Both the position numbers and the translations under genes were made by a program. Positions 4,909 through 40,724 of a stretch of DNA of 64,000 nt are shown here, in pieces; position 1 is the stretch's first letter, and each line of letters begins with the position of its first letter. The stretch lies in the UHGV virus genome UHGV-0010228. The stretch is one strand, 5' to 3'. The stretch comes from a virus. The notes below the pieces were generated by a model, which saw only the letters and a list, made by a program, of their open reading frames with translations, ran no database searches and was not told the origin of the DNA.

Positions 4909-4920
4909 TTTATAAAAAAA

Positions 4921-4952
4921 TTTAGAATATCGCAATATTGCGATATTCTAAA
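4921..4952 (-). terminator. Terminator: perfect palindrome tttagaatatcgcaatattgcgatattctaaa
   Basis: Follows gene 4971..5357 on the minus strand and is followed by a T-run on that strand. This ends the nrdD operon. Confidence 0.6.
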
Positions 4953-4970
4953 TTTCTATAACTTGATTTT

Positions 4971-5840: not shown

Positions 5841-6156
5841 CTTTTATACCCTCGGTTTCCCGATATTTTAGTAGGGGAATAGACTATACAATACTATTTC
5901 TGATTATTTTTATGACAAAATCGACCTTTAGAATCTCGTGCCTTAAAACACAGAAATAGTTCTCTATTATAGTCGTTGAACGTCCATCCTATATTTCTAT
6001 AGATGTTTCGCTGCGTTTGATTACCCAATCCTTAATGATTTTACCATACCGATTCCGTTACTAATCGCCACTATCTATATCACTATGATAGCTTGGTTAT
6101 TAAGGCTCTAAGGGACTCCCCGCAGTTTAAGAGATTTAACGTGGACTATCTCGTTA
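5841..6156 (-). ncRNA. Group I self-splicing intron in nrdD (316 nt, no ORF)
   Basis: Internal guide GUCCAC (complement of + 6141-6146) pairs with exon end GUGGAU, with a terminal U-G. P-like element AACUGCGGGGAG, R element GUUCAACGACUA and S-like element UAUAGUCUA are present. The segment is GC-elevated and ORF-free. Confidence 0.8.
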
Positions 6157-15716: not shown

Positions 15717-18700
15717 TTATAATGTAGCTATTTTATTATACATTGAATTTAGATTAGGATTCTTTAATGATTTTGCACTTTTTGCTCTACTTCCAGTAGA
15801 AATATTATTTGTCTTATTACCACCAATAATTGTAGTGTTACCACTATTTGTAATGTTAGTTGGACTAGAATTCTTACTGTCACCATACCACTTGTCAATA
15901 GTATTAGCAATAGTATCGAGTCTAGATTCAACTCCATCATTATTAGCATTAATAAATGTATTCTTATTAATAAATCCACCATTTTCAGAATTGCCTCCGA
16001 AGTATGGAGCATCTGGGTTTATATTATATCTCTTTGCCATATTAACATTTGCTATATTTAACTTCTTATTATAATCAGGCCCTAAACCTACTAAGCTATA
16101 TGATGCAGGATTGATCCATGACCCGTTTTTCTTTACACCATAATGTAAGTGGTTACCTGTAGACTTGCCAGTAGATCCAACAAGACCAACTTTAGCACCC
16201 TTAGCAACTCTAGCGCCCTTAGACACTAAGCGCTTACTCTGATGAGCGAAGTAATGTTGAGTTCCCTTACTATCTGTTACTACAACAAGATTACCAAATC
16301 CACCAGTACTACCAGGAGATTCCGATCTAGTAACAGTACCCGATACAGGTGTATAGATTGGAGTTCCAGCTGGTGCTGCAAAATCTATACCATTATGCAT
16401 CTTACGTTTACCGCTCTGTGGATCTGATCTATATCCGAATGGACTTGAAATTCTCGTGTACTTCAATGTTTTCTGAATGGCTTCTTTAGCATTATTACCA
16501 ACTACATTAACTGATGAACCAACTGAAGAGCCAGATAAAGAAGAAGATGATGACTTAGATGTAGTATTAGTGTTTGATGATTTTCCAGATGAGTATTTAG
16601 AATTTATCCAATCCCATAAATCTCCCATCTTTGATGCTTTCATTGCATTTCCAACACCTTCTGCATATCCACTTATCATTTCACCCCACGTGGAGTTACC
16701 ATATCCAATCGGAAGATCAATATCTCCCCAGCCATAGATATTTTTTCCACCAACAGAATCGTATTGTCCTAAATTATAATTTACATATAACCGCTTTAAT
16801 TTATTTTCATAATCAATTTTTGCCATCGGGATATTATTTGGATAATCATACGTTGATGTGCAGTATCCAGCATTAGCAACTGCGTGCATTGCATCATATG
16901 CTGTAGTTGCAGTTCTAGCACCACTATATAACTTACCCGAAAGCACATCCCAATATCTAACTACACTATCACCAATGGTATTATATTTAGCCAACTTACC
17001 TTTTGGCATTACACCAAACATATTATTACTACTGAGAGCTCCACCGGCTGATCCTAAGCTTGTTTCTTGAATCGCTTGCGCCAGCGTTAATGAAGGTGGT
17101 AATGATGTTGATCTGGCGTTATCTTGAGCAAATTTTGCAAGAATATTTAATCTTTCACTTAATGATTTCTTTGCCCACTGTCTTCCACTAACATTTAATT
17201 CAGCCGGTATAGTAATTGAAGATCCGTTAAAATCTACAATTCCCGTACTACCTAAGGTTTTACCATCTTCAGCAGTTTCATAGTCTGATGATACATCACT
17301 TTCCAATTCAGAAGCAATTGCTTCCCATGGATCTGTACCATTCACATATGCTGTCATATATGAACTAATAGCACCCGCAAGTCGCTTTAATTTTGTGAAA
17401 AGATTCTCGCCTTTTAACGAACCTAAAAAGTTCATAACTCCTTCTCTAGTATGCTCTAATAAGCCGGAAGCTAAAGATTCATCAGTTGCTGCAATACTAG
17501 ACATATCAACTCCGTTTACATAGTATTCAGAATTATCAACTCTTTCTTGCATATCTTTAATTTTTGAAGATGATAATCCCCAGTTTACGTAAATATATGA
17601 CAATCTAGTTCTCTCGTGCTGTTTTATTACACTTTTAGACTTATATGTAACATTTGTACCTGTTTCAGTTTCACCATCTTTAATTACTATCGAATATTTA
17701 TTATATTTTTTATTTATTGGAATTTCGACATATCTCCAATAATCTCTTAAAGTATAATATTTATCCCTATCTGCTGATTGCATTACTGTATCTACAAGTC
17801 TTCTTAATTCAGCATCAGTAATTTTAGATACTGGAACGTTTTTCTTTCCAATAGTAGCAACATTACATACATCTGTAGATTTATTAAAATAATCAATTTT
17901 TGTTATTGTAGTATCATTCGATCCAGTCGAACTTTTCCACTTTTTATATACATATTCATAGATATATCTAGTTCTAAAAATATTATCACCATAAGTATTA
18001 ACTTTCTTTCTCCAACTTAATGCTTCATATTTTTTATATCCTTCTACAATATATTTATCATATAACTTAAAATCGGATTTTTTGTAAGATAATATTAATG
18101 AATATAGCGCAGTATTTCCAATACCTGCTAAATCTTTAGTTTGTTCAGGGACTGGTGGAATAGATTTCTTAATTGCACAGAATTTATATGGATCCGCTAA
18201 ATACTTATTTTCAATATCTCTTGAAGTCAGCTTCGTTTTATTTGCTGCATTATATAATTTTGATGGTGCCGGCGGATTATAATTTGTAGTTGTTTTAGCT
18301 TCATTTTTCTTTGCAGTTGTAATATCTTTAACCAATTTTGATTTATTGGATAGCTTATTAAGGGTTGATGATATCAGTCCATACCCAAATGGTATATCAT
18401 ATGCAGTCTTTTTTGTTTTATACATATCTGGAATATTGATATTACCATAACCATATGACCATCCACCAGTTGCATTGTTGATGACTGATGATGCTGAATA
18501 ACTCTTAGTCTTACCATCCATTGGATCTTTGATAATGATATTACCATTTGAATCCATACCTGATGCTACAACTATATGACCAGCTGATGTGAATGGATCA
18601 TTTGTATGATCTCCTCTACCGGCTACTATTGTAGGTACTCCAGATTTTATATTTGTATATAATTCGGATCCTCTAGTTACTTGATGAGGCTTTAATCCCA

Positions 18701-21700
18701 TTTCTGCAGCACCTTTGGTGAATAATGCTGCATTAGCCCCGCCCTGAGTAATATATCCATTAGCAGCTGCCATTTTACCAATGTCTCCAGGTGAAATCAT
18801 TTTACCATTAATATCATTTGCAATCATTGCTAATGATGTAGGTCCACATCCACCGTTTGCCATAGTAGATGGCTGTCCATTTGGTAATGTGCCTAATGGA
18901 ATACTTGACCACTGAGCATTTTTCTGAGATAATGCCTGACCATATCCAAAACCAACAGGTCCTCTGCCAAAACCAGCATTATTTATATTTGAAGATTTAT
19001 TTCTATTATTAGATGTATTAGTAGATGCTCCACTTCTAATAGTACCTCCACTAACATCATTCGTTATATAATCATCATTATAATCAGTCATAGTATAGCC
19101 ACTGTATGCACCAGCAGGTTTACCATAACCTAAAGCTTTATTCATAGATATGATTGGATGTCGAATCACACTCCATACACGTTTTATTACACTTCTATTT
19201 GCTATAGTGTCACTATATTCATCTAATGTTAAATCATCACCATTTTCTGCATTATATTGAGCAGCTTCTTCTTCAAATCTTTTCTGAGCTTCATCAAGAT
19301 TAAGAGCAAACTGATCATTGAATAACCCAGATAATTTATCATATAAGAACGATGCAAATTCACATTTAAGATCACATCCTTTAAATGCACCTACAACTTC
19401 TAATGTTAAGTCTATTACAATACCTACACTAATACCCATAAGGCATTTCATTACTGATGATATGAATCTCATTAATAAATCAACATCATTTGCATTTACT
19501 TTGAATAAATTAGCAGCTTCAAAGAATCCAGTTGCTAAATCGTATACACCGAATAATATTCCTATCGGAGAAGTAGTTATTCCGGCCTTAGCTATCTGAG
19601 TTCCTAATAAAGTTGCATATTTCATATATATTCTATCTTCTGATAATATAAATGTTAACTTATCTTTGAGCCATGAACTAATAGCAGATATTGTTTTAGC
19701 AATAACTGTCTTTTGTCCACTCTTATCTTTCATTATTTTACCTAATACTTTTAGTACAACCTTATTCTTTGCAATTGCACTTATTCCTTTTTCTACTAAT
19801 CCAAATGCTTTTCTAATAAGACCTTTTCTACTTTCTTTAACTGCATCACTAGCTCCTGTTTCAACAACGCTCTGTGTTGATTTCTTAAGAATATCTTTTT
19901 CAAAATCAGTTGTTGCTTCACCTGCAGCAGCCTTTGCAGTTGCTTCAGCAATAGCACCAGCTTCGGACTTTGACATAGTAAATCCAAGATCAAGGGCTGT
20001 ATCTTTAATAATGTTTCTTCTAGCAATATCCACAATTGATTTGCTTACAGATTCTGATGCATATTTTTCAAGTACTCCTAATCTTTCTTCAACTGGAAGA
20101 TACTTTAATACTTCTTCTAATAATTCTTCAGGTGCTTTATGAACACTAAGGCCTTTAGCAACCATAGCTCCAGCACCACTTTTAACATTACCAGCAGCAC
20201 TTTCAGCAGATATTCCTTTGAGAATATCATATGCTTGCTTATCATCTATATTTGAAACTAATACTTTATTGACTTCGTCTAATGTCTTATCAGATATATT
20301 ATTTAATGCGCCATTCTGTAATACCCTAGCTCCAATATCAGATGCACGTCCACTTCTAAGACCTGTAGAAGATACTATAGTATTTATACTTGATCCTGCT
20401 ACTGATCTAGCAACTGAACTCGTAGCTTTAATAGCGGCATCGCCTAATGCGGCACCTCTAGCTCCACCATATAATGCCCCTGTAACTGGCGAAATTCCTC
20501 CTGGCATTAATCCAAAAGCTCCACCAACCGTAGCACCCAGGACTGCACCGGCACCCTTATATAGCAATTTTCCAGTTCTACCACCACGAGCAGCATTAAT
20601 AGCACCTCTAACAAATCCATTTAATCCTATTCTTTGTGCATCAGTATGCTCAGCATATGTTGCATTTCCATCTTCATCAATACCTATAGCATCTTGATCT
20701 CTAGTATATGAAATAGTACCATCTTCATCAACATCAATAACATTATTACCATTAGCTTGCAAGCCTTGAATCATTGATGCTCTTTGCTCTTTGCTCATGT
20801 GAGCAGTTGATAATGTGTATACTTCAGTTGTATCAGTTTTAAACTTCCATCCTGGGACTAGTTTACCAACAGTAACATTCCATAATGCTTTAAGAACTGA
20901 TCCTGCTATAGTTGGAATTACAGAAATAAATGCATTCATCATTGGTTCTGCTAATGTATTAAACATGACCTTTATAACATCAGCAATATAATGAGCATTC
21001 TTTCCTATATTTTCAAATACTTTAGTTATTGATGGGAATATGTATTGATTCCAATACATTGGGAAGTTTTCTGAGAACTTATTAATACCATTACCAATAG
21101 ATGTTAATCCATGCTCTAATGTTGGTAATACATATTGATCCCAAATTGCTCCACGCTCAATGAAATTAGAGAATTCCTGAGTCTTAGCTTCAAGTCTAGC
21201 CTGGAAACCAGGTCTTATAATTTCAGCTATACCTATAGTTATACCTGCTACAGTGTATGCAGGAATAATTTTCTTAACACCAGCAACTACTAATTTAGCA
21301 GGAAGGGTATTGCCAACCGCACCTAATACACTTCCAGATACTCCTAAAATCTTTCCAAGAGCTTTTCTAATTATAGATGTATCATTTTCAGTTGGTTTTT
21401 CTTCTTCTTCATTAGTTTTAGCAGCAGATGTTGCACCTATAGTTGCAACTGAAGTTGCACCTTTACGAACTTCCTCAGTATCTTCATCTTTTCTATTAAG
21501 AGCAAAAAAGCTCTTAATATTATTTTTCATATTTTGAACATTCTCATTTTCTGTTATTTTATATTTATCCATTATACGTTTACCGAAACGCTTTAATGGA
21601 TTTCCTTTTGACGTACTCTTTCTCTTCTTTCTAACATCATCACCAGTAATATCACCATCTGTATTGATTTCAACATCAACTGCAGCAGCATCAGCAATAT

Positions 21701-24700
21701 CCTGATTAATTTTATTAGCTTCTTTCTGAAGATTTTCATTTTCTTTAGCAAGATTTATCTGTTCTTCCTGAAGCTTATGATTTAATCCTGCTAATTCATT
21801 TGTCTCTCTGAATAAATCAATTATCTTCTGTAAGTAAGATGACTTAGCGTCGTCATTATCTTTAATCTTAGATTCTACAAAATCTGCTAAACCATTAATA
21901 CCTTCAGGACCTAATCCCTTATCAATTTTACCAGATTTCTTAACTCTCTTAAGATTTTCAATAACGCTAGCATTAGATGCATCTTCTGATGTTCTACCAC
22001 CAAATGTGAATCCTGAAAGATCTACATCTCCTGCATACGCAGCTTTAATTAATTTATCAAGGAATATATCTTTATTAATACCTACTCTAGAATACATCGC
22101 ATCATCATTAAATCCAACATTCATTCTCGTAGCTTTTCTGCGTATATCTCCATATTTTCTAACATATTCTTCACGCATAGCTTCATATTTATTCTTGTCA
22201 GCTTCAAACTGATTCTTCTTTGAATTATATCTAAATCTCTTTTTCTCATTCTCATCTTTACGCTTTCTCTGCTTTACAAAATCTCTAAAATTACCAGTAG
22301 CAAAATATCCTGATTCTCTATATTCGTTAAATAAATCATCATCTAAGATATCTGCACTAAGATTACCAATATCTTCGATACCCATACCACTAGTATCTAT
22401 TCCATGTCTCTTTAACTTCTTTAATATTCTATCTGCATATTCAGTTCTATCAGCTTCACTAGTAAATTCATTTATTTTAAGATGGCTATTTAAAGCCTTC
22501 CCAGCAAAGAAATCTCTTATTGACTGGAGATAATCTTCTACTGCTGTCTGATAGCGCATAGTGCGTTCTCTTGCAGCTTTTTCTTCTGGGCTTTCCTGAA
22601 CTTTAACACCATCACGCATTATCTGCTCTTCAAGTGTGCCATTCTTTACAGCCTTAGACCATTCTCCACGTCTATAAAGTAAATCCATAATATCATCAGA
22701 TGTTTGTAATCTATTCAGATACTTATCATCTTTCATACCTGCTTTACGGAACATCTCACGATATCTCTTCACCTGTTCATCTGTTAAATCTACTTCTCTA
22801 CCACCAAGATCTTTAATTGTGATATTTTCTCTGATCTTATTGACCTTTTTCCACATCTTATTTTCTTTCTTGGCAGCTTTAGCTTTTGCATTTAGATCAT
22901 CTAAATCATTATCTGCTGTCATCCAATCAAATGCATTTCTACCAAGATCTGACATTTGATCAGCCCATCCTTCTTTTGCAGCTCTAGCTATATCACCTTT
23001 ACCTCTAATAGCTTGGAATATATCTACAGCTTTTCCTAATCCTGTTCTGCTATTACCAGCTTCACGTTCAGTTCTCCACTTACCCATGAGCATAGTAGCA
23101 ATATTTCTACGATATTCTTTTCTATAATCACCCATAGCATCTTTACGTTTACCACGAGTCAATAACTCTAAACCACGAAGACCTATAGAAACCGGAGCAA
23201 CTGCACCATAGATTCCTAATGACGCCGTTTTAGTTACAGCTTTAGTGATAAGCTTAGTTAATGACGCTACTGGACCAAATATTCTATGAAGGGCACCTTC
23301 AATAATAGTCTTAGCACCATCACCTATTTTTTCAATAACCGCTTTTATATTGTCTACAATATTATCTTTAACTTCTTTTATACTATCAACTATTGGACCA
23401 AATGCTTTTCTAAATGGTATTGTAATATTTTTTCTAATGGTATTTAAAGTTCCCATTACATGTTCTTTTGCAGGTCCTATGATATTATCAATTATAGTAA
23501 CCTTCATAACATTAGCCATTCGTCTTAAAAGACCATTAGTTTTTCTACCTATTACATTACCATTTTCATCAACTTGCTCTGTACCAAATAAGTATTCATT
23601 AAATTTCTTACTTGCAGAACTCATTCCGATTACCATACCAGCAATACCCATACCAATAGGTCCACCAGCAGATAATGCTGCAGGAATAAATCCCATATGA
23701 GACATCGTAGTAGCAGTTAATGCACCAATAGCAAAACCTTTTATTCCCTTACCGATCATAGGGAATAATTTGCCGAGTCTTTCTTTAGATTTATTCCAAT
23801 GATTTGATAACCAAGTTCCGCTGCGTTTTCCATCAGCACCTTTTTCACCAAATAACATTGATTGGAAAGACTCATTATTCTTTAATATACCTAATGCCGC
23901 ACCTAATAACGCACCACCAATTACACCAGAAGGTAATAATGCAGATGTTAACACTCCACCAGCACCAAACTGAGATACTGTCGAAGGCAATACTATTGAT
24001 TTTATAACACCTAATGTTGCACCACCAATTGCAAATGGTAAAGCTTTCTTAAATGATGCTTGCATCTTTTTAGTGAATATACCACCATGACGCTCACCAT
24101 TATCATCCATCTTACCAAACATTACAGACTGGAATGCTTCGGTGTGACTAAGAATTGATAGACCAGCCGCAGCGATAGCTCCACCTAATACAGTGTGAGG
24201 TAAAAATGCAAGACCGGTTAATCCTAAATTTTGTCTAGTTGCTAATAATCCGAAAATACCACCAGCTATTGCAGCTGCAGCTGCTTTAGGAGCAATCTTC
24301 TTTGCAGATTCTTTAAATTTTTCAAAGATATTCTGAGTAACTTTCTTTTTCTTAGTACTATCATTACTACCTTTTATATCTTCAGCAACATCTTCTGCTG
24401 CATCTTCAATTTTTTCTGCACCATTATATATCGTTAACGCAAATTGATCTTTTGCTGACTCGATCATATCCGCGGAATTATCAACTCCAACTGTGAATCT
24501 TTTCTTAGCACCTATAAGTTTCTTTCCAGTGAATCGTTTATAGTTACGCTTAGGGCCTTCTAATAATTTTGTCTCAGTAGCATTTATATATTTCTTATCT
24601 TCTACATCATCTGTAAGATTACTAGTAATATTTACTGTAGATTTTCTATCTCCTGGCTTTCTGAGTTTCCTCTTAAGAGATTCTTTTGTAACCCCTTCAG

Positions 24701-27680
24701 CCAATTGTACTTTACGAGGATCATTTTCCATTTGATAAACTTTATTTCGTTTATCTTTTCTATGTCTATCAGTCCATGATAAATATTTAAGATAAGTTTC
24801 ATTATTTTGCCAATCCTCACCAAATAAGTAAGTCATGGTACCACGCTGAATCTTATCGTATCCTTTTCCTAATTCTTCTTTGGTCTTTTTCCAAAAAGAC
24901 TTTTTACCATCCTTAGCTTTCTTAACCTGATCTTTAAATATACCATCTTTTTCATCAAAGAAATATTTCTTTATCTTTTCTCTAAGTTTTTTAGATGGTT
25001 CACTATCCCAGAATTTTGATAATAATCCATTTTCACCAAATAATGAAGATGTGAAATTAGTAAAGCTTGCAGATAAATTAGAAATTGCTATTGTATTAGC
25101 ATTTGCATTCTGCATTAAAGCTTCTTCTGGGGTATTTGGTGTTGGAGCATCTTGTAATCTATTAACTAAATTATTTCTAAGAGCAGTATCCTGTGCAACC
25201 TTTCTCTGGTCTCTACCAAGAATATCTTTTGGATTTCCGGTAATGTCCATCTTTTCAACTTGTGCACGAATATCATCAGTATCATTACTATGCCTAGCTC
25301 TTCGATTACGCATTCTATTGCGTAATGCTGCTTTATTACCACTAAATTTTACAGACCGTTTAGTACCAACACTATATGTGTTATAATCCAGATCATCAAA
25401 ATCAAAATCATCGGCGCTTCTAACTGGTCTGTAATGTTTATAATCGAAATCATCTTCGAGATCTTTATTTATCCCATATACAGTTCTAAAAAGTCTATCA
25501 TCTACAGGATCTACAAATTTTGATCTAGCATATTTATTCATTCTCTTCTTGCGCATTGCTTCGGCACGTTTAGGAGAGAATTTTCCAACAATTTTTTCTC
25601 CAAGATGAGTATTCTTTACTATCCATTCTTGATAATATTTCTTAATTATTTTCTTACATTCAGTCTTTTGCTCATTGATAGATGTAGCTTTATCGGCTAC
25701 CTTTTGTATTTCTTTATAAAATCCAGGTTCTGATGCGATATCTTCAATAATATCATCAGTAATTCCCATTTCTCGCATATAGTTCAATATACGTTCATCA
25801 ATCAAGCTTGAATCCATAAAGGCATATTCAAAATGGTTAATATCGAACTTTCTTCTACCACGTTCATCAGTACGTTTAAACTTTATATTATTTCTTCTAT
25901 CATTCCAAGCAGTTTTTCCGTACTGATTATTAATGTTTCTAAATATTGAAGTATCTGATGATCCAATATCAAATAACTTCTCGTTCAATCCAGCAATTGA
26001 CTCATTTATATAATTATCATAATCCATTATAGCTTGCTTATATAGATTATAATTTTCTTTCTTAAGATATGAGATTGCCTTTGCGAACTCAATACGTGCT
26101 TGTTTATCATCTATATTATCAAATATTCTATCATTAGTAATTTCACTTACTCTAGATGAAACCTTTTTTCTTTGCTTCTTATCACCAACTCCATTTATTG
26201 CATCAGTAATAGATTCGGCCATATTATTAAGAGAATATTTAAGCTCATCATTGAAATCTTTTTCAATACGATCTTTAGTCTTGAACATTCCTGTTTCATA
26301 ATCATAGTATCTCTTATTACCTTTACTATATGAAACTCGATTAAATCCATTAGGATCAACATTGAGATTTGATTTGGATAATATCTTACTGATATTAGCA
26401 ATATTATTATCCATACTACTCAAATATTCAGGAATTACTTCAACTATAGCTCTTTGAGCATATCCATTCCATGGTAAAGCATCTTTTGTATATCCACTAA
26501 GGCTTAATCCTTTTAATTTATTTCGGTCATTACCAAAAATATCACTAATTCCTAATAATGACCATATCATCTGCCCACCAAAGCCTAAACCTTTTGGTGA
26601 ATAACTCCCAATTCTTTTCAATATCTCATCGGCATATTTGCCAATCTTTTCATCAAATTTCTTTAATGATTTTGGCATTGCCATACCAATGAATTTTTCT
26701 GCAATAAATCCTACAGGATCATTCTTTATTTTCTTTATGGTATCTCCTCCGCCCATTCCTTGACCAGGAAGCATGAGCTGAGCCATTGTACCTAATAATG
26801 AATTTCCAAAATTATTTTTAACGTATCCAAGATATTCTTTTACATTAAATCCACTAGAAGTGTCAAAGTTTTTGCTTGAAGGTTTATCTTTAGAATATTT
26901 ATATTTTGTCATATTTTCAAGCATATCGCCAATTCCACTCATCATATCATTTGCAGATGAGAAGAAATCGCCCATAGTTTCATATGCTTGAACTGTATTT
27001 GAATTATGAAATTCTAACAGTTTTTCAATATTATCATTTATTCTATCAACCTTATGATTTAAGGTCATAAGTGATGAATTCAACAAATTCGTTCCATATA
27101 GAACTGAATTTATTATAGCATCAGCATTAGCACTAGAAAGTTTTGCATTTGTCCTATTTATACTATTAGCTAAATGCTCCATTCCTTTTACTTGTGCCGA
27201 ACTTGATAGCACAATTGACTTCGCAACACCAGCAGATGCATTCATATACACTTCTGCGTTTTTTGAATTATTTGTACTATCAGAAAACTCATCATCATCT
27301 AAAGCAAAATCATCATTTAAATCAAAATCTCCCATTATATCATTTTCAAATGAATCATATAATTCATCTGATACAATATTTGAGAAGACTCCCGAATTTA
27401 ATTGCTCTTTTGCTCTATTAAAAGTATCTCGAGCAGCTTTAGCGAGTTTATTTTTACCCATCTCTCTCTGCTCTTGGGTCTGCACATTCTTAAATTTTCT
27501 TGATGTATTTCTTATCTCCTTATTAATTTCTGAAATACCTTGTGCAGTATTATATGTTGATGGTAATACTTCTTTAGCAGTTATCTTAAAAGCATTACCA
27601 ACTGACGATCCAGCATTTCTTACCCAAGATTTTTTCTTAGATCTCGAACTGCTAGATCTAGATTTTATAGTTCTAGCCAA
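15717..27680 (-). CDS. Giant 3987-aa virion/tail protein: tape-measure-like glycine-rich TM region plus C39-like peptidase, lytic transglycosylase and M23 peptidase domains
   Basis: Uninterrupted ORF with TTG start and AAAGGTGG RBS. The middle has Gly/Ala-rich membrane-spanning segments (AAAAIAGGIFGLLA..., GGPIGMGIAGMVIGM). Domain motifs: GGCGPTSLAM...GHIVVASGMD (C39-like); LTLAQAIQETSLGSAGG...NNMFGVM (SLT/lysozyme-like); HNGIDFAAPAGTPIY...GNHLHYGVKKNG (M23). Confidence 0.85.
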   Translation of the reverse strand: MARTIKSRSSSSRSKKKSWVRNAGSSVGNAFKITAKEVLPSTYNTAQGISEINKEIRNTSRKFKNVQTQEQREMGKNKLAKAARDTFNRAKEQLNSGVFSNIVSDELYDSFENDIMGDFDLNDDFALDDDEFSDSTNNSKNAEVYMNASAGVAKSIVLSSSAQVKGMEHLANSINRTNAKLSSANADAIINSVLYGTNLLNSSLMTLNHKVDRINDNIEKLLEFHNSNTVQAYETMGDFFSSANDMMSGIGDMLENMTKYKYSKDKPSSKNFDTSSGFNVKEYLGYVKNNFGNSLLGTMAQLMLPGQGMGGGDTIKKIKNDPVGFIAEKFIGMAMPKSLKKFDEKIGKYADEILKRIGSYSPKGLGFGGQMIWSLLGISDIFGNDRNKLKGLSLSGYTKDALPWNGYAQRAIVEVIPEYLSSMDNNIANISKILSKSNLNVDPNGFNRVSYSKGNKRYYDYETGMFKTKDRIEKDFNDELKYSLNNMAESITDAINGVGDKKQRKKVSSRVSEITNDRIFDNIDDKQARIEFAKAISYLKKENYNLYKQAIMDYDNYINESIAGLNEKLFDIGSSDTSIFRNINNQYGKTAWNDRRNNIKFKRTDERGRRKFDINHFEYAFMDSSLIDERILNYMREMGITDDIIEDIASEPGFYKEIQKVADKATSINEQKTECKKIIKKYYQEWIVKNTHLGEKIVGKFSPKRAEAMRKKRMNKYARSKFVDPVDDRLFRTVYGINKDLEDDFDYKHYRPVRSADDFDFDDLDYNTYSVGTKRSVKFSGNKAALRNRMRNRRARHSNDTDDIRAQVEKMDITGNPKDILGRDQRKVAQDTALRNNLVNRLQDAPTPNTPEEALMQNANANTIAISNLSASFTNFTSSLFGENGLLSKFWDSEPSKKLREKIKKYFFDEKDGIFKDQVKKAKDGKKSFWKKTKEELGKGYDKIQRGTMTYLFGEDWQNNETYLKYLSWTDRHRKDKRNKVYQMENDPRKVQLAEGVTKESLKRKLRKPGDRKSTVNITSNLTDDVEDKKYINATETKLLEGPKRNYKRFTGKKLIGAKKRFTVGVDNSADMIESAKDQFALTIYNGAEKIEDAAEDVAEDIKGSNDSTKKKKVTQNIFEKFKESAKKIAPKAAAAAIAGGIFGLLATRQNLGLTGLAFLPHTVLGGAIAAAGLSILSHTEAFQSVMFGKMDDNGERHGGIFTKKMQASFKKALPFAIGGATLGVIKSIVLPSTVSQFGAGGVLTSALLPSGVIGGALLGAALGILKNNESFQSMLFGEKGADGKRSGTWLSNHWNKSKERLGKLFPMIGKGIKGFAIGALTATTMSHMGFIPAALSAGGPIGMGIAGMVIGMSSASKKFNEYLFGTEQVDENGNVIGRKTNGLLRRMANVMKVTIIDNIIGPAKEHVMGTLNTIRKNITIPFRKAFGPIVDSIKEVKDNIVDNIKAVIEKIGDGAKTIIEGALHRIFGPVASLTKLITKAVTKTASLGIYGAVAPVSIGLRGLELLTRGKRKDAMGDYRKEYRRNIATMLMGKWRTEREAGNSRTGLGKAVDIFQAIRGKGDIARAAKEGWADQMSDLGRNAFDWMTADNDLDDLNAKAKAAKKENKMWKKVNKIRENITIKDLGGREVDLTDEQVKRYREMFRKAGMKDDKYLNRLQTSDDIMDLLYRRGEWSKAVKNGTLEEQIMRDGVKVQESPEEKAARERTMRYQTAVEDYLQSIRDFFAGKALNSHLKINEFTSEADRTEYADRILKKLKRHGIDTSGMGIEDIGNLSADILDDDLFNEYRESGYFATGNFRDFVKQRKRKDENEKKRFRYNSKKNQFEADKNKYEAMREEYVRKYGDIRRKATRMNVGFNDDAMYSRVGINKDIFLDKLIKAAYAGDVDLSGFTFGGRTSEDASNASVIENLKRVKKSGKIDKGLGPEGINGLADFVESKIKDNDDAKSSYLQKIIDLFRETNELAGLNHKLQEEQINLAKENENLQKEANKINQDIADAAAVDVEINTDGDITGDDVRKKRKSTSKGNPLKRFGKRIMDKYKITENENVQNMKNNIKSFFALNRKDEDTEEVRKGATSVATIGATSAAKTNEEEEKPTENDTSIIRKALGKILGVSGSVLGAVGNTLPAKLVVAGVKKIIPAYTVAGITIGIAEIIRPGFQARLEAKTQEFSNFIERGAIWDQYVLPTLEHGLTSIGNGINKFSENFPMYWNQYIFPSITKVFENIGKNAHYIADVIKVMFNTLAEPMMNAFISVIPTIAGSVLKALWNVTVGKLVPGWKFKTDTTEVYTLSTAHMSKEQRASMIQGLQANGNNVIDVDEDGTISYTRDQDAIGIDEDGNATYAEHTDAQRIGLNGFVRGAINAARGGRTGKLLYKGAGAVLGATVGGAFGLMPGGISPVTGALYGGARGAALGDAAIKATSSVARSVAGSSINTIVSSTGLRSGRASDIGARVLQNGALNNISDKTLDEVNKVLVSNIDDKQAYDILKGISAESAAGNVKSGAGAMVAKGLSVHKAPEELLEEVLKYLPVEERLGVLEKYASESVSKSIVDIARRNIIKDTALDLGFTMSKSEAGAIAEATAKAAAGEATTDFEKDILKKSTQSVVETGASDAVKESRKGLIRKAFGLVEKGISAIAKNKVVLKVLGKIMKDKSGQKTVIAKTISAISSWLKDKLTFILSEDRIYMKYATLLGTQIAKAGITTSPIGILFGVYDLATGFFEAANLFKVNANDVDLLMRFISSVMKCLMGISVGIVIDLTLEVVGAFKGCDLKCEFASFLYDKLSGLFNDQFALNLDEAQKRFEEEAAQYNAENGDDLTLDEYSDTIANRSVIKRVWSVIRHPIISMNKALGYGKPAGAYSGYTMTDYNDDYITNDVSGGTIRSGASTNTSNNRNKSSNINNAGFGRGPVGFGYGQALSQKNAQWSSIPLGTLPNGQPSTMANGGCGPTSLAMIANDINGKMISPGDIGKMAAANGYITQGGANAALFTKGAAEMGLKPHQVTRGSELYTNIKSGVPTIVAGRGDHTNDPFTSAGHIVVASGMDSNGNIIIKDPMDGKTKSYSASSVINNATGGWSYGYGNINIPDMYKTKKTAYDIPFGYGLISSTLNKLSNKSKLVKDITTAKKNEAKTTTNYNPPAPSKLYNAANKTKLTSRDIENKYLADPYKFCAIKKSIPPVPEQTKDLAGIGNTALYSLILSYKKSDFKLYDKYIVEGYKKYEALSWRKKVNTYGDNIFRTRYIYEYVYKKWKSSTGSNDTTITKIDYFNKSTDVCNVATIGKKNVPVSKITDAELRRLVDTVMQSADRDKYYTLRDYWRYVEIPINKKYNKYSIVIKDGETETGTNVTYKSKSVIKQHERTRLSYIYVNWGLSSSKIKDMQERVDNSEYYVNGVDMSSIAATDESLASGLLEHTREGVMNFLGSLKGENLFTKLKRLAGAISSYMTAYVNGTDPWEAIASELESDVSSDYETAEDGKTLGSTGIVDFNGSSITIPAELNVSGRQWAKKSLSERLNILAKFAQDNARSTSLPPSLTLAQAIQETSLGSAGGALSSNNMFGVMPKGKLAKYNTIGDSVVRYWDVLSGKLYSGARTATTAYDAMHAVANAGYCTSTYDYPNNIPMAKIDYENKLKRLYVNYNLGQYDSVGGKNIYGWGDIDLPIGYGNSTWGEMISGYAEGVGNAMKASKMGDLWDWINSKYSSGKSSNTNTTSKSSSSSLSGSSVGSSVNVVGNNAKEAIQKTLKYTRISSPFGYRSDPQSGKRKMHNGIDFAAPAGTPIYTPVSGTVTRSESPGSTGGFGNLVVVTDSKGTQHYFAHQSKRLVSKGARVAKGAKVGLVGSTGKSTGNHLHYGVKKNGSWINPASYSLVGLGPDYNKKLNIANVNMAKRYNINPDAPYFGGNSENGGFINKNTFINANNDGVESRLDTIANTIDKWYGDSKNSSPTNITNSGNTTIIGGNKTNNISTGSRAKSAKSLKNPNLNSMYNKIATL
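16100..16465 (-). other. M23 (LytM-type) metallopeptidase domain of the giant protein
   Basis: HxxxD...HxH motif set: HNGIDFAAP, then NHLHYG near 16154. Confidence 0.7.
16760..17180 (-). other. Lytic transglycosylase (SLT-like) domain of the giant protein
   Basis: AQAIQETSLGS... catalytic-Glu motif encoded near 17040-17110. Confidence 0.6.
18455..18900 (-). other. C39-like (papain-fold) peptidase domain of the giant protein
   Basis: GGCGPTSLAMIAN...GHIVV. The cysteine is encoded near 18840-18850. Confidence 0.55.
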
Positions 27681-36003: not shown

Positions 36004-39000
36004 ATGCTATTCGAAAATTATGAAGATTGGAGAGTATATCCACCACAACCGAGGATATATTTCCCTAAAAATTCTTCAAAAAATAAAACTGCAGGATATG
36101 GATCAGCGTTATTTTTATTAACCCCCAAAACTACATCATCTTTCGAATTTATGAAAGATAAAAATGTAGCACTCAGAATGTCTTTATATAAATACTATAT
36201 GATAGAGACGATGTATAAAGAAAAAATTGGTCGAAAAAATGTCATATTAAATATGACTAGACAGATGGAAGCTTTATATAATGAAAATAATGTTGAAAAA
36301 GATACTACAATATCTTATATTCCTAGACCTCAGAAAAAAGCTAGATTAAAATCTGGTAATAATATAATTGTAGATTTATCAATGTGGATGGAATTATATC
36401 TTAAATATACAGTAACTATTCAGAATCCTAAGGAAAAGTGTAGAATATTTATAGATTTATTAGATAAATTGCTTAATGATAGTAATTATAATAATTATGA
36501 AAAATTAGTATGCATAGATATAAATTCATGGACTAATAGAGCGGCAGATTGTGTTATGATGAATCGCGATCTACTCAATAACCCTCTATCAATTTTAATT
36601 TATGCTATGGTTAAATATCCGGATTTATTAAATGGAAAACTTAAAAACTTTAGAATATATCTCGTAAATAGATCTAGTAAGCAGATTTTTCTCTTTAATA
36701 CAAAAGATATTATTAAAGATAATTATAACAAATTTAAGAGTAAGATCAAATTATTCAAGGGTATATCTATATCATCTTCTGAAACTCTTGAGGGCGATAC
36801 CAATATATCAGAAGGTGAAGCCAAGGCTATCGCTATCAATAATTATAAAAATAAAGTATTAAAGTCAATGAAGAGTAATCTCTTAGGTAACAGTAAGAAT
36901 ACTGAAATTCGAGAAATTACTGACGATGATGAATTGATTGATAGTAATGATGATTATGATGAGATCTTCGATGTTACTAAAGAAATAGAAGAAGAATCTG
37001 ATGAAGTAAAACCAACCGATGAAGATTCTAATCTTTTTGATGAAATGGGAGCAGAGTTAGATCTTGATGCTGAAGCTTTGGCTGAATTAGATAATATGAT
37101 TGGTGATATTGATGATGTATCAACTGATGATATATTGAATACTCCAGTAGATGAAGTTGCAGATGATCTTGCTGAACGTGTTAAAAATAATGTATTCATT
37201 GCGGAATTTAAACCTAAGAGGACAAGTGAGCAAGAAGAGCGAAATCGTGAAATGATGGATATTCAGGCAATAGCTCTTAATCAGGAAAATATTGATAATG
37301 CAAAAACCAAGATAATTGATACAACAGATTTTTCAGACTATATCAATTCTTCCAATGTAAATATTCTTAAATCAAAATATGTTAATTTTGATAAAGACTA
37401 TGTTGAAAAGAAAATGGAAGGTGACATAGACAATGCTGTTGCTTGCTTATCTGGAGCGACAGATAAGATATTCATCACCAATAAAGAAGTTATTGATTCT
37501 TCAGACTCTTTAAATCTTAAGAGGACTTTAAAATATTCCCTTGAAGATGAAAAAGGTAATAAAATGACAATAACTTTTGATGTACCTATTATAATTGATA
37601 ACTGCTATATCTATGTAAATGGTAGTAAGAAGTTGATAGGTCATCAGTTTATATTAAAACCTCTAGTAAAAACTGGTCCTGATACTGTTCAGTTAGTAAC
37701 TTCATATAATAAAGTATTTATCACTAGAGATGGCGTTGTAGATTATATATCTTCTAGCATTATAACTTATATGGAGAAGAATCCAGAGAAGTTTAAGTGT
37801 GTTAGGGGTAATTCATCAATTAAGAATAAGAAATATAACACAGCATTAGATTTTACAATGTATGCTAAGTTATTTACTAGATTTACAATTGGTGATGAAG
37901 AATTTATTACCGGCATTGAAGAATTTTATGATAGATACAATAAAAAATATCCAACTAAAAAACTTAAGTTGGATAAAAAGAAAATTGCTGAGAAGTATCC
38001 AATTTCATTTAATAAAAAGACTGGTGAAATAAGATATATGAAATCAACTGAAAGTTTTTCGGATATCTTATTATCAATCATTGATGAAGAAGATAAGAAA
38101 GCAATTAGTAGAATTAAAAAGAAACCTAGACTGGTTTATGTTAGGGCTAAATTAATGGGCCAAATATTCCCAATGGCTCTTCTTTTAATGTATCATGAAG
38201 GATTCGCGTCTATAATGAAACGTGCAGATATTGCTTATCAATTCACAGATAAGAAGTCATATAATAAAATGGATAAAATGAGATATGATTTCTTAGAACT
38301 ATCGGATGGATTAGTCGTCTGGGAACGTAGAAATATGTTAACTTCATTACTCATGAATGGCTTAAAGCGATTAGATTTTACACCTTATACAATAGAAGAG
38401 TTAGAATCTAAGGATACTTATAGGTCATTATTAGTCGACTTATATAATGGGGATAATTCTATTTCATATAAAATAGATCAGTTCTATGATTTTACAATAG
38501 ATTCTATTACTAAGGAGATATTAGAGGATATGAATTATCCTACAAATCTTCCTGATTTATTAATATTAGCAGTTAAGATGTTATGTGATAGCGCATATGC
38601 TCTTGAAAATAATATGAATAATATGAGAATTAGAAGTAATGAGGTAATTCCAGCGATTATTCATAAAGAAATAGCAGATGCATATAACTTATATAGAAAG
38701 ACATCTTATAAGAAGAAACCAGTTAATGTATCTATTAAACCAAATATCATAATTGATAAATTACTATCTGCTGATACCAATCTCATCGAGGAATTTAGTA
38801 CTATAAATCCTGTATTAGAGATAGAAAAAGCTCGTTGTGTAACATTTAAAGGCTATAGAGGTATACAGTTAGATAGAGCGATAACTCTTCCTAGACGTGG
38901 ATATGATCCATCAATGTTAGGAATTATGGGAATTTCAACATCATCAGATGCTAACTGTGGTGTAAATAGACAGATGACATTAGAACCTGCGATTACATCT

Positions 39001-39128
39001 ACAAGAGGATACTTGGAGGTAAATGGTGTTGAAAATGTAAATTCTTTAACAGATGCTAATTTACTATCGCCAGCAGAATTATTAACACCACTCGGTGTTA
39101 TACATGATGACCCCGATAGAACTGCGAT
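36004..39128 (+). CDS. Multisubunit RNA polymerase beta-like subunit, exon 1
   Basis: AGGAGGTG RBS. C-terminal part aligns by eye with bacterial RpoB: ...LDRAITLPRRGYDPSMLG... (compare RERAGFEVRDVHPTHYGR), RGYLEV (YGFLETPYR), LTPLGVIHDDPDRTA ([14 protein letters not shown]). The exon ends ...gcg at| and the 'IKKSLLDVAV*' tail is intron read-through. Confidence 0.75.
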
Positions 39129-39541
39129 CAAAAAAAGCTTGTTAGATGTCGCAGTATAATACCTTGTGAATTGCGGGGATAATTGATACTTTTTATATAC
39201 TAAATCATTATAGTAATATAATGATGGCGAGGGGTAATTCCTTAGGTATAGTAATAATTATAAAAAGAATATTAAATCCGCATCTAATGCTCTTTATACG
39301 AGAAAAGTTCAGAGACTATCGAAAGCTAGATATCTATCATTTATAGAAATATATAAAATACTATACAATATATAGTATGGATAGATTGAGATAACCAAGT
39401 GAGTAGAGTAGAGCCAAGTTATTGGGTTAGTATATATATGATATTAGTATATAGTAAATCTATTAAATCGAAGCGCAAGGGTTAGATTTTATTTGGTAAA
39501 AGAGTAAGATCTAATAAGATATAGTCCGCGATCACATTGTG
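39129..39541 (+). ncRNA. Group I self-splicing intron in the RNAP beta-like gene (413 nt, no ORF)
   Basis: Classical core elements: P gaattgcgggga (39168-39179); Q aaatccgca (about 39282); R gttcagagactat (about 39307-39319); S aagatatagtcc (39516-39527). Internal guide gtcgcag (39148-39154) pairs with exon end cugcgau (39122-39128), with a U-G closing pair. Omega-G at 39541. Confidence 0.85.
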
Positions 39542-40724
39542 GTCTTACAAGCAAACGAAATACATGATTCCAGTTGCTGATTCGTCACCAGTGTTAATAG
39601 GTAATAAAGTTGAATCTATTTTACCATATTTAATTTCAAATGAATTTGTTGTTGATGCTAAGCAAGATGGTGAAGTTGTTGAGATTAAAGACGATTATTG
39701 TGTCGTAAAATATAAAGATGGAACTTATTATTCTATAGATATTGGAAGTAGAATTAAGAAAAATGCAAGTGCAGGTTTCTTTATAGACAATAAATTAACT
39801 TGCAATTTAAAAGTTGGAGATAAATTCAAAAAGGGTGATATTTTAGCTTACAGTGATAAAGCATTTACTCCTAATAGAGATGGTAAAGGCGCATCTATGA
39901 ATTTAGGAGTATTAACAAAAATTGCAATTGTAAGTAATTGGGATGTATATGAGGATAGTGCACCTATCACTAAAAAATTAGCTGAACGGTTAGCTACAGA
40001 TATGGTTTGGGAAAAAGCAGTATCATTAAATCCTGGTACTTACATTGAAAAGATGGTTAAGATTGGTGATAAAATAAAGACTGGTGAATCACTGATGTTA
40101 TTTGAAGAAGTTGATGATACGGATTTCGCTGCTGTTCTTAAACAGATTCGTGAAGAAAATCAAGAAGAACTTATTGAAAGCACAAAATCAACTATTACTT
40201 CGAAATACACAGGAGAAATTGCTGATATTAAAATATATTCAACTGTGCCAGTTGAAGAGATGGATGAATCTTTAGCTAAAATAGTGACCGATTATTATAA
40301 AAAGGTCGAAAAAAGAAATAATATTCTTGAAAAATATAAGAATCCTGGAGATTGTAATTATTATAAATCTGGACAGATTATATCTGAGGAATCTAAAGTT
40401 ATGAAACCATCTAAATCTGGTAAGATTAAAGGTGAGTATGCCGAAAATTCAGTAGTTATTGTATTCTATGTTAAGTATAGAGATGTAGCTGCTAAGGGTG
40501 ATAAAGTATGTGCACAGTTCGCACTTAAGGGTGTTTGCTCACATGTTATAGAAGAAGGATTAGAGCCATATTCTGAATATAGACCAGATGAAGAAATATC
40601 AGCTCTTATTGCACCTCTTGCAGTATCTGCAAGAAAAGTTCCGTCAGTATTCAAGATGATGTTTGGTAATAAATTGCTTATAGAATTAAAACGACATTTG
40701 AAAGATATGTACTTAAATAACTAA
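39542..40724 (+). CDS. Multisubunit RNA polymerase beta-like subunit, exon 2
   Basis: Junction codon at+g gives Met: ...HDDPDRTA-M-SYKQTKYMIPV (compare [20 protein letters not shown]). Downstream GDILAYSDKAF...NLGVLTKIAIVSNWDVYEDS (compare GDVLADGPSTD...NMRVAFMPWNGYNFEDS). Also ALKGVCSHV...LIAPLAVSARKVPSVFKMMFGNKLLIELKRHL (compare GNKGVISKI...[22 protein letters not shown]). The protein stops at about E. coli residue 1100. Confidence 0.75.

What the first reader, a model, noticed from the sequence alone, without database searches (positions are those of the whole stretch)
39129..39541. Group I intron splitting the RNAP beta-like gene at its most conserved segment
The 377-nt gap between ORFs 36004..39159 and 39537..40724 is GC-elevated and ORF-free, and exon 2 has no RBS or real start. 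It carries all four classical group I core elements, in order: P gaattgcgggga, Q aaatccgca, R gttcagagactat, S aagatatagtcc. An internal guide gtcgcag (39148-39154) pairs 7/7 with exon end cugcgau (39122-39128), ending in the canonical U-G. Omega-G at 39541 is the only G preceding a codon third position in the open frame. Splicing 39128|39542 creates the junction codon ATG. It also replaces the non-homologous 'IKKSLLDVAV*' tail with ...HDDPDRTA-M-SYKQTKYMIPV, which has the same length as, and is co-linear with, bacterial [20 protein letters not shown]. Introns in phage RNAP genes are rare. An intron-interrupted, phage-encoded multisubunit RNAP is a notable combination.
Basis: partly seen in the sequence, partly recalled or inferred. 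Interest (0 to 1): 0.8.

Follow-up and report, generated by a model that had tools for sequence, protein, structure and literature searches.

The report
Group I intron in phage RNA-polymerase gene
A 413-base self-splicing-type (group I) intron without its own gene interrupts the virion RNA polymerase beta-subunit gene of an uncultivated giant phage, which is real but ordinary because the same gene carries such introns at nearly the same spot in other giant phages.

Summary
The finding holds. Window 39129-39541 (+) is a 413-nt, ORF-less group I intron. It splits a PhiKZ-gp178 / PhiPA3-gp211/209-type virion RNA polymerase beta gene.

- **Junction:** joining 39128|39542 gives a 1435-aa protein. 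Its junction ...HDDPDRTA-M-SYKQTKYMIPV is identical to the uninterrupted gene of the closest relative (L007). It is gap-free against more than 200 phage homologues and bacterial RpoB.
- **Guide sequence:** a 17-nt guide (39138-39154) pairs 16/17 with the ligated exons (P1 plus P10).
- **Same-site introns:** two related metagenomic phages (L043, L044) carry introns at exactly this site. Both pass Rfam's threshold (66.3 and 53.8 bits) and show compensatory changes in P1, P3 and P4.
- **Rfam miss explained:** the window copy scores only 10.5 bits. It has no P2, almost no P9, and large insertions in P5 and P7.1/P7.2.
- **Independent model:** a model built only from relatives' P7.1-P7.2 domains hits it at 82 bits (E 5e-15).
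the intron is not GC-elevated, and introns in jumbo-phage RNAP genes are not new. PhiPA3 has one 17 nt upstream, and Staphylococcus jumbo phages have them too.

This is a new member of a known kind. Splicing itself is inferred, not shown.

The parts
36004..39128 (+). Exon 1 of the virion-RNAP beta-like gene. It ends with the first two bases (AT) of the junction Met codon. The ORF as listed runs on to a stop at 39157-39159 inside the intron.
   Evidence: It aligns to PhiPA3 gp211 up to the HDD motif and to L007, SA1 and LPJP1 homologues.
39129..39541 (+). Group I intron, 413 nt, with no ORF above 41 aa. Architecture is IA2-like: P7.1/P7.2 present, no P2, minimal or no P9.
39542..40724 (+). Exon 2. 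It starts with the G that completes the ATG, then SYKQTKYMIPV..., and ends with the stop codon.
   Evidence: It aligns to PhiPA3 gp209.
39122..39128 (+). P1 5' strand (exon end CUGCGAU). U39128 forms the U.G pair at the 5' splice site.
   Evidence: There are compensatory changes in L043 and L044, and U.G is invariant in 6/6 introns compared.
39138..39147 (+). P10 guide strand (CUUGUUAGAU). It pairs 9/10 with the first 10 nt of exon 2.
39148..39154 (+). Internal guide sequence, P1 3' strand (GUCGCAG).
39542..39551 (+). P10 exon strand (GUCUUACAAG).
39162..39168 (+). P3 5' strand (CCUUGUG).
   Evidence: In 6 of 7 pairs, changes on both sides are seen across relatives.
39172..39177 (+). P4 5' strand (UGCGGG), part of the classical P element.
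39179..39273 (+). P5 with a long extension, including a 9-bp hairpin capped by a GUAA tetraloop (39204-39225).
   Evidence: Constrained fold and coordinates. Predicted only; no comparative support.
39277..39282 (+). P4 3' strand (UCCGCA), the classical Q element.
39290..39302 (+). P6 candidate, only 3 bp (CUC/GAG). This is the weakest part of the model.
39307..39319 (+). R element: J6/7 plus the P7 5' strand (GACUAU, 39314-39319).
39320..39473 (+). P7.1-P7.2 peripheral domain between P7 and P3'. It contains the conserved CGAAAG, an enlarged P7.1 hairpin (39332-39386), GAGUAGAGUAGAG, the CCAA/UUGG hairpin (39414-39425), the P7.2 hairpin with loop UGAUAUUAG (39433-39453), and CUAUUAAAUCGAAG.
   Evidence: It is 75.6-83% identical to introns of Staphylococcus Twort-like phages and Listeria phage LPJP1. 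Model R1, built from relatives only, scores 82.1 bits, E 4.9e-15.
39474..39480 (+). P3 3' strand (CGCAAGG).
39482..39514 (+). P8 hairpin (closing pairs UUAGAU/AUCUAA).
39516..39527 (+). S element: J8/7 plus the P7 3' strand (AUAGUC, 39521-39526).
39527..39541 (+). Short 3' tail (CGCGAUCACAUUGUG) ending in omega-G 39541. At most a 5-bp mini-hairpin stands in place of P9.

Best explanation
Window 39129-39541 is an ORF-less group I intron of the phage IA2-like type (P7.1/P7.2 between P7 and P3'). It sits inside the codon for the conserved Met of the beta-subunit motif HDDxxRxxM. The host gene is a PhiKZ-gp178-type virion RNA polymerase beta subunit in an uncultivated, AT-rich jumbo phage.

Proposed mechanism:
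1. The gene is transcribed as one pre-mRNA.
2. The intron folds. The guide 39148-39154 pairs with the exon end 39122-39128 (P1, with U39128.G39148).
3. An external guanosine bound in P7 cleaves after U39128.
4. P10 (39138-39147 with 39542-39551) brings in exon 2. The 3'-OH of U39128 attacks after omega-G 39541.
5. The ligated mRNA carries AU|G = Met and encodes one 1435-aa beta subunit.

Shown here: the sequence anatomy, the exact exon junction by comparison, helix covariation, and homology to group I introns that Rfam recognises.

Inferred: that splicing actually occurs, and that it is autocatalytic.

Having no endonuclease gene, the intron cannot home on its own. Its patchy distribution fits either past mobility or mobilisation in trans.
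For: **Exon junction**
- The spliced product is in frame, 1435 aa.
- The nearest relative, L007, encodes GVMHDDPDRTAMSYKQTKYMIPV uninterrupted. From HDD onward this is identical to the predicted junction. It aligns over residues 1-1435 in one frame.
- 213 phage records cover at least 80% of a 400-aa junction segment in one piece.
- There is no gap across the junction against SA1, LPJP1 or bacterial RpoB.

**Guide pairing**
- P1+P10 pair 16/17 with the ligated exons. This is the only such site in the window, and 7 of 20,000 shuffles reach it.

**Same-site introns**
- L043 (2749-2976) and L044 (2683-2944) carry introns at the same site, with compensatory P1, P3 and P4 changes.
- Their Rfam RF00028 scores are 66.3 and 53.8 bits, above the gathering score of 50.

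**Core helices**
- Across six introns, 96.1% of cells are paired, against 75.6% in shuffles and 30-52% when the structure is slid.
- 18 of 30 pairs change on both sides, and no shuffle of 500 reaches the observed pairing percentage, the number of doubly changed pairs or cells, or the covariation score (1 of 500 reaches the count of further pair types).

**Independent models**
- Model R1, built without the window, scores 82.1 bits, E 4.9e-15, at 39352-39526.
- BLAST links the 3' domain to introns in split RNR, topoisomerase and recA-like genes. One of these, the phiR1-37 topoisomerase intron, scores 69.8 bits in Rfam.

**Other**
- Exon 2 has no RBS, and its frame opens only 15 nt upstream of the 3' splice site.
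- The intron is identical in 5 further metagenome contigs from 5 samples, so it is not an assembly artefact.
Against: - Rfam RF00028 does not reach its gathering score on the window copy: 10.5 bits, E 7.4 in a 701-nt search, and nothing in whole-window searches.
- P2 is absent.
- Only 15 nt follow P7, so there is no conventional P9.
- P6 is only 3 bp in the best model.
- The constrained fold (-83.1 kcal/mol without P7) is less stable than the unconstrained MFE (-95.1).
- The core alignment used for covariation was assembled by hand from segments chosen as helix strands, so it leans towards the structure.
- No RNA data were available, so splicing is inferred.
Confidence: 0.9

Rival explanations
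1. A decayed, splicing-dead intron remnant. Under this reading the beta subunit is made as two separate polypeptides: exon 1 with the tail IKKSLLDVAV, and exon 2 started at TTG 39537 or ATG 39564. This would add one more split to the already split jumbo-phage RNAP.
For: - Jumbo-phage RNAP subunits are naturally split, and intron mobility has been proposed as the origin of such splits (PMC7598289).
- This copy lacks P2 and P9, has a 3-bp P6, and fails Rfam's threshold.
- Public gene calls treat the two parts as separate genes.
Against: - The break lies inside a codon of the most conserved motif, and no RBS precedes either candidate start.
- All catalytic-core strands are intact and identical or compensated relative to Rfam-positive relatives.
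- The 17-nt P1/P10 guide still matches both exon ends 16/17. A dead intron would not be expected to keep that.
- LPJP1b, a relative, also lacks P2.
- There are zero substitutions in the intron among 5 strain contigs, though the flanks are also invariant.
Confidence: 0.05
2. A group I intron, but with splice sites other than 39128|39542.
For: A 7-nt repeat, GCGATCA, occurs at both 39124-39130 and 39528-39534. It offers an alternative partial partner for the guide sequence.
Against: - Only 39128|39542 satisfies all of the following: U before the 5' cut, G before the 3' cut, the reading frame, and the junction peptide seen uninterrupted in L007.
- L043 and L044 use the homologous positions.
- The P10 register fits only this 3' site.
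Confidence: 0.02
3. Another kind of intervening element: a group II intron, an intein, a translational bypass/frameshift site, or an assembly artefact.
For: None specific. Group II introns do occur in related phages; LPJP1 has a hit of 68.8 bits.
Against: - There is no group II hit in the window.
- The insert is not an open frame, so it is not an intein.
- The same 404-nt gap between gene calls is present, and the sequence from 38299 to 40243 is identical, in all 5 strain contigs compared, of 12 that carry the exon-2 product.
- The group I core is present and covaries.
Confidence: 0.01

Closest known systems
PhiPA3 group I intron carrying the HNH homing endonuclease gp210, in the vRNAP beta gene gp211/209 (Birkholz et al., Science 2024; PMC11620839)
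   Same: The host gene is the same. The window protein aligns to gp211 up to HDD and to gp209 afterwards. The conserved motif is the same, and both are group I introns in a jumbo-phage multisubunit RNAP gene.
   Different: The PhiPA3 intron sits immediately after the second Asp of HDD. The window intron sits 17 nt (5 codons + 2 nt) further downstream, inside the Met codon. PhiPA3 carries an HNH endonuclease ORF, while this intron has none. No sequence similarity between the two introns was looked for or seen.
Introns at the identical site in metagenomic relatives: L043 (ERZ1034917 NODE-1226, 228 nt) and L044 (ERZ1034992 NODE-827, 262 nt)
   Same: The insertion point is the same (RT[A/S]-M-SYKQ), and so is the P1/P10 guide layout and the ORF-less state. 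The 5' 60 nt and the Q-R region are similar (77-81% over about 50 nt).
   Different: They are shorter. They have a P9 hairpin with a GUAA loop, a small P5, and a reduced P7.2 region. They pass Rfam's threshold (66.3 and 53.8 bits), whereas the window copy does not.
IA2-type phage introns with a P7.1-P7.2 domain: Staphylococcus Twort-like phages (DELF3 recA-like gene, MR003 RNR), Listeria jumbo phage LPJP1, Yersinia phiR1-37 topoisomerase gene
   Same: The P7.1/P7.2-P3'-P8-P7' domain is homologous: 75.6% over 131 nt with DELF3b and 83% over 71 nt with LPJP1a. Spacing of P3/P4 is the same, and R and S are conserved.
   Different: The host genes and guide sequences differ. Most have P2 and P9-P9.2, and some carry endonuclease ORFs (LPJP1b in P8). 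The window copy has an enlarged P7.1 and P5 and lacks P2 and P9.
Mini-introns (about 165 nt) in the same gene of Staphylococcus jumbo phages Madawaska (annotated as joined CDS) and AH12
   Same: The gene is the same, with insertion points within about 10 codons (after HAD; after GMTG). They are ORF-less and have the same R and S elements.
   Different: The exact sites differ. They have no P7.1/P7.2 domain and are much smaller.
Phage T4 td / nrdB / nrdD (sunY) introns (textbook knowledge, not tested here)
   Same: They are group I introns in conserved segments of essential phage genes, with the same P, Q, R and S consensus. The window also has an nrdD intron.
   Different: T4 introns carry, or once carried, endonuclease ORFs and have full P2 and P9 domains.

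Membership tests
Group I intron | P1 helix between the 5' exon end and an internal guide, with a U.G pair at the cleavage site | tested here: met
   CUGCGAU/GUCGCAG pairs 7/7 with U39128.G39148. U.G is invariant in 6/6 related introns, and 5 of 7 P1 pairs change on both sides.
Group I intron | Conserved core P3-P4-P6-P7-P8, with P3/P7 forming a pseudoknot and the P, Q, R and S elements in order | tested here: met
   P3, P4, P7 and P8 are 95-100% paired across six introns with compensatory changes. P6 is weak, at 3 bp.
Group I intron | Guanosine-binding P7 and a terminal omega-G at the 3' splice site | tested here: met
   P7 GACUAU/AUAGUC is identical to Rfam-positive relatives. G39541 is the only frame-compatible G. 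Guanosine binding itself is not testable here.
Group I intron | P10 pairing of the guide with the 3' exon | tested here: met
   39138-39147 pairs 9/10 with 39542-39551 and lies contiguous with P1.
Group I intron | Score at or above the Rfam RF00028 gathering threshold (50 bits) | tested here: not met
   The window copy scores 10.5 bits, E 7.4, with only model positions 51-156 matched and P3' mis-assigned. Same-site introns in L043 and L044 score 66.3 and 53.8 bits. Most relatives of this subfamily are also missed, so this is a sensitivity limit of the model.
Group I intron | P9/P9.0 3'-terminal domain and P2 | tested here: not met
   Only 7 nt lie between P1 and P3, and only 15 nt after P7. 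These are peripheral elements and are not universal. LPJP1b also lacks P2.
Group I intron | Autocatalytic splicing with GTP and Mg2+ | not testable with these tools
   No RNA or biochemical data were available.
Subgroup IA2-like phage introns (P7.1/P7.2) | Extra helices P7.1 and P7.2 inserted between the P7 5' strand and the P3 3' strand | tested here: met
   A 154-nt domain at 39320-39473 is homologous to that of Staphylococcus, Listeria and Yersinia phage introns. Model R1 scores 82.1 bits. The P7.2 stem covaries under a conserved loop UGAUAUUAG.
Mobile intron with homing endonuclease | An intron-encoded (or adjacent free-standing) HNH, GIY-YIG or LAGLIDADG endonuclease | tested here: not met
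   The largest internal ORF is 41 aa. Flanking ORFs have no Pfam or PHROG hits. None of 47 window ORFs of at least 100 aa matches an endonuclease family of these types. The rest of the roughly 220-kb genome was not examined.
Jumbo-phage virion RNAP beta subunit (PhiKZ gp178 type) | Homology across the beta catalytic region, including HDDxxRxxM and Rpb2 domain 6 | tested here: met
   Pfam RNA_pol_Rpb2_6 scores 24.8 bits against a cutoff of 23.4. tblastn matches 295 jumbo-phage records and PhiPA3 gp211/gp209. RpoB structures match at E 1.3e-5. Virion packaging was not tested.

The most novel reading that the evidence does not exclude
The roughly 33-nt stretch encoding HDDxxRxxMxG of jumbo-phage vRNAP beta is a battleground invaded independently at three or more distinct positions: after DD in PhiPA3, Madawaska and AH12; inside the Met codon here and in L043/L044; and after GMTG in AH12. 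Under this reading, endonuclease-less introns such as this one persist because they split the recognition sequence of rival phages' homing endonucleases (for example gp210-like HNH nickases, whose critical base lies 2 nt upstream of the PhiPA3 insertion site). They would then act as immunity elements in phage-phage competition rather than as inert parasites.
Probability: 0.12. Interest if true: 0.55.

Novelty: new member of a known kind. Interest (0 to 1): 0.3.

Why it matters
**For annotation.** The two ORFs are one gene. In the public metagenome assemblies both halves are called as separate genes, and Rfam-based pipelines miss the intron. Correct joining gives a full-length virion RNAP beta subunit.

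**For biology.**
- It adds a third insertion position, and an ORF-less example, to the cluster of group I introns around the HDD...M motif of jumbo-phage vRNAP beta. This is the site where the PhiPA3 intron endonuclease was shown to mediate competition between co-infecting phages.
- It shows that RF00028 systematically under-detects IA2-like phage introns with large P5/P7.1/P7.2 insertions or missing P2/P9.

None of this changes current understanding.

Tried and rejected
- **Rfam, gathering score, whole window:** no hit.
- **Rfam, E-value mode, whole window:** neither this intron nor the nrdD intron was found.
- **Rfam, local E-value search:** a weak partial hit whose P3' assignment (CGAAAG) I reject. 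That string is a conserved joining segment in all relatives, and the true P3' (CGCAAGG, 39474-80) covaries.
- **IMG/VR pattern scans for the P7.2 motif:** 0 hits, then 13 hits, all chance matches in coding DNA.
- **MAFFT of the full-length same-site introns:** misaligned because of the large insertions (A2). I replaced it with a hand-segmented core alignment (A3).
- **First constrained fold:** invalid, because P3 and P7 cross as a pseudoknot. Redone with P7 held single-stranded.
- **Megablast of 20 kb against GenBank phages:** no match.
- **Exact-protein look-ups for the two ORFs as listed:** nothing. Only the ATG-39564 version is on record.
- **AR9 genome paper (Lavysh 2016):** could not be read, so its reported introns are not used as evidence.
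- **Pfam and PHROGs on neighbours, and on 47 window ORFs:** no homing endonuclease.
- **Co-conversion idea:** the SNP-free block around the intron might mark a recent co-conversion tract. I left this open, because SNP density is also low downstream.

Full report
**1. What is in the sequence**

ORFs 36004..39159 (+, 1051 aa) and 39537..40724 (+, 395 aa, TTG start) are separated by 377 nt.
- P at 39168-79
- Q at 39274-82
- R at 39307-19
- S at 39516-27

The guide GTCGCAG (39148-54) pairs 7/7 with the exon end CTGCGAT (39122-28), ending in U.G. G39541 is the only G at codon position 2 in the exon-2 frame between the in-frame stop at 39522 and 39575. No Shine-Dalgarno-like sequence precedes the TTG.

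One stated detail is wrong. The gap is not GC-elevated: the intron is 0.288, the exons 0.291 and 0.310, and the window 0.297.

**2. The exons are one gene**

Joining 39128|39542 gives a 4308-nt frame and a 1435-aa protein with the junction ...GVIHDDPDRTA-M-SYKQTKYMIPV. Several comparisons support this junction.

- A 400-aa segment centred on the junction finds 295 phage records. In 213 of them a single uninterrupted piece covers at least 80% of the segment. These include Staphylococcus jumbo phages, Listeria LPJP1, Yersinia phiR1-37 and PhiKZ-like phages.
- The alignment crosses the junction without a gap, and the Met is conserved: SA1 has HADSPRIGMTGTQ and LPJP1 has HADPPRISMQVTQ.
- The closest relative found is the 236-kb IMG/VR contig L007. 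It is 48% identical over residues 1-1435 in one frame. It encodes GVMHDDPDRTAMSYKQTKYMIPV uninterrupted, which is residue-for-residue the predicted spliced junction.
- Bacterial RpoB structures align across the junction gap-free...[13 protein letters not shown]..., 8dy7_C, E 1.3e-5.

The protein aligns to PhiPA3 gp211 up to HDD and to gp209 after it. It is therefore the PhiKZ-gp178-type virion RNAP beta subunit. Pfam RNA_pol_Rpb2_6 is just above its threshold.

**3. The insert is a group I intron**

*Guide pairing.* Directly 5' of the P1 guide lies CUUGUUAGAU (39138-47), which pairs 9/10 with the first ten bases of exon 2 (P10). The contiguous 17-nt guide therefore pairs 16/17 with the ligated exons. 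It is the only site in the window, on either strand, that does so. Only 7 of 20,000 shuffles of the intron reach this level.

*Architecture.* The layout differs from the one Rfam's local alignment suggested. The string CGAAAG after P7 is a conserved joining segment in all relatives. The true P3 3' strand is CGCAAGG (39474-80), pairing with CCUUGUG (39162-68). A 154-nt P7.1/P7.2 domain (39320-39473) lies between P7 and P3', as in IA2-type phage introns.

*Homology of the 3' domain.* This domain and the P3'-P8-P7' region are similar to sequences in unannotated gaps inside split genes of other phages:
- 75.6% identical over 131 nt to the recA-like gene gap of Staphylococcus phage DELF3
- 83% identical over 71 nt to a split gene of Listeria jumbo phage LPJP1
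- weaker matches to the RNR gene of MR003, the topoisomerase gene of phiR1-37, and PALS_2

*Independent model.* A covariance model built only from seven such relatives, with the window excluded, hits the window once, at 39352-39526, with 82.1 bits and E 4.9e-15.

*What is missing or weak.* There is no P2: only 7 nt lie between P1 and P3. There is essentially no P9: only 15 nt lie after P7. P6 is only 3 bp. P5 and P7.1 are enlarged.

**4. Same-site introns and covariation**

A metagenome scan found two related phage contigs with an insert at exactly the same position, RT[S]-M-SYKQ:
- L043, intron 2749-2976, 228 nt
- L044, intron 2683-2944, 262 nt

Their exon end is CGUCGAU and their guide is GUCGACG (GUCGACA in L044), against CUGCGAU/GUCGCAG here. 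That amounts to two compensatory double changes in P1. P3 and P4 also differ compensatorily:

| Helix | Window | L043 | L044 |
|---|---|---|---|
| P3 | CCUUGUG/CGCAAGG | CCUCGUG/UGCGAGG | CAUUGUG/CGCAAUG |
| P4 | UGCGGG/UCCGCA | UGCUGG/UCAGCA | UGCUGG/UCAGCA |

Both introns pass Rfam's gathering score for RF00028, at 66.3 and 53.8 bits.

I built a hand-segmented core alignment of six introns: window, L043, L044, LPJP1a, LPJP1b and DELF3b. On it:
- 96.1% of cells form standard pairs, against 75.6% in shuffles and 30-52% when partners are slid
- 18 of 30 pairs change on both sides
- the U.G at the splice site is invariant

The caveat is that I chose the segments as helix strands, so the counts lean towards the structure.

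*Why Rfam fails on the window copy.* It scores 10.5 bits, E 7.4, with nothing at gathering score. This is explained by the missing P2 and P9 and by the long insertions. Several other relatives of this subfamily gave no Rfam hit at E below 0.01, and DELF3b scored only 41.8 bits, below the gathering score.

**5. Distribution**

The same phage occurs on 12 metagenome contigs, up to 223.5 kb. The five I read, from five samples, all carry the intron. They have no substitution between 38299 and 40243, against about 19 substitutions in 36600-38298.

L007 and L042, which are about as distant as L043 and L044, lack the intron.

Other lineages carry different introns within about 10 codons:
- PhiPA3, immediately after HDD, with the HNH endonuclease gp210 (PMC11620839)
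- Staphylococcus phage Madawaska, after HAD, a 165-nt insert whose CDS is annotated as joined
- AH12, with three mini-introns
- L044, with three introns in this gene

The window intron lies 17 nt downstream of the PhiPA3 position. By counting from E. coli D675 as given in that paper, the interrupted codon corresponds to RpoB M681 (inference).

No homing endonuclease is encoded in the intron, in its neighbours, or among 47 window ORFs of at least 100 aa.

**6. Mechanism**

Shown: the anatomy, the junction, the covariation, and the homology.

Inferred: the pre-mRNA folds. External G attacks after U39128, held in P1. P10 aligns exon 2. The exon-1 3'-OH attacks after omega-G 39541, giving an mRNA for one 1435-aa beta subunit.

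The loss of P2 and P9 may make splicing less efficient or dependent on a protein. This is untested.

The main rival is a dead intron with two separately translated halves. It is unlikely for three reasons: the guide still matches both exon ends, the catalytic strands are intact, and exon 2 has no translation start signals.

**7. Novelty**

Group I introns in conserved segments of essential phage genes are classical. One in this very gene and motif has been characterised experimentally (PhiPA3). Others are annotated in GenBank.

What is new here:
- a new insertion position
- an ORF-less, P2/P9-less variant
- a new, uncultivated host phage

This makes it a new member of a known kind, with modest interest.

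**8. Limits**
- No RNA data were available.
- The AR9 genome paper could not be read.
- The rest of the phage genome was not scanned for endonucleases.
- The structures of P5, P6 and P7.1 are predictions only.

Noticed in passing
window 6156..5841 (minus strand); exon 1 8248..6157, exon 2 5840..about 5773: A second group I intron (316 nt) splits the anaerobic ribonucleotide reductase gene nrdD just before the glycyl-radical motif. Rfam RF00028 scores 28.9 bits, E 2.2e-5, in a local search, below the gathering score. P1 is GUGGAU/GUCCAC. The spliced C-terminus reads ...VVRRTCGYLGSNFWNEGKTKEINSRVLHL*. It parallels the T4 nrdD (sunY) intron.
   Followed up: partly
L004 4568-4732 (Staphylococcus phage Madawaska); L005 about 4568-4731, 4762-4960 and 5419-5547 (phage AH12): Very small (about 165-nt) group I-like introns sit in the homologous vRNAP beta gene, with recognisable P1 (UGCGGAU/GUUCGCA), P4, R and S. 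AH12 has three of them within about 1 kb. None reaches E < 0.01 against Rfam. They are smaller than commonly cited minimal group I introns (from memory).
   Followed up: partly
L044 about 2201-2460, 2683-2944, 3880-4231: One metagenomic relative carries three group I introns in the same vRNAP beta gene, with Rfam scores of 73.4, 53.8 and 40.8 bits.
   Followed up: partly
window 39124-39130 and 39528-39534: A 7-nt direct repeat, GCGATCA, spans the 5' splice site and recurs in the intron's 3' tail, 8 nt before omega-G. It could be chance, an alternative partner for the guide sequence, or a trace of the insertion event.
   Followed up: no
window 38299-40243, compared with L037-L041: Strain variants from five samples have no substitution in the intron or in about 800 nt of flank on each side. 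The 5' 1.7 kb of the gene carries about 19 SNPs. This may reflect constraint, or a recent sweep or co-conversion tract.
   Followed up: partly
L033 2345-2499 (Listeria phage LPJP1, record 120247-120401): A group II intron domain D1-D4 hit (RF02004) scores 68.8 bits, above the gathering score. It lies downstream of an ORF-containing group I intron in the same region.
   Followed up: no
window, ORFs of at least 100 aa (not pinpointed): One ORF matches SpoIIID (E 1.5e-15) and one matches RusA (E 1.1e-12). ORF 845-1507 weakly matches a PD-(D/E)XK nuclease. The SpoIIID-like regulator and 29.7% GC suggest an endospore-forming Firmicute host.
   Followed up: no
window 15717..27680 (minus strand): A single 3987-aa ORF (about 12 kb). 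It was not examined.
   Followed up: no
window 2966-3171 (minus strand): A weak L20_leader hit in Rfam (31.2 bits against a gathering score of 58.7, E 0.034). It is probably chance.
   Followed up: no
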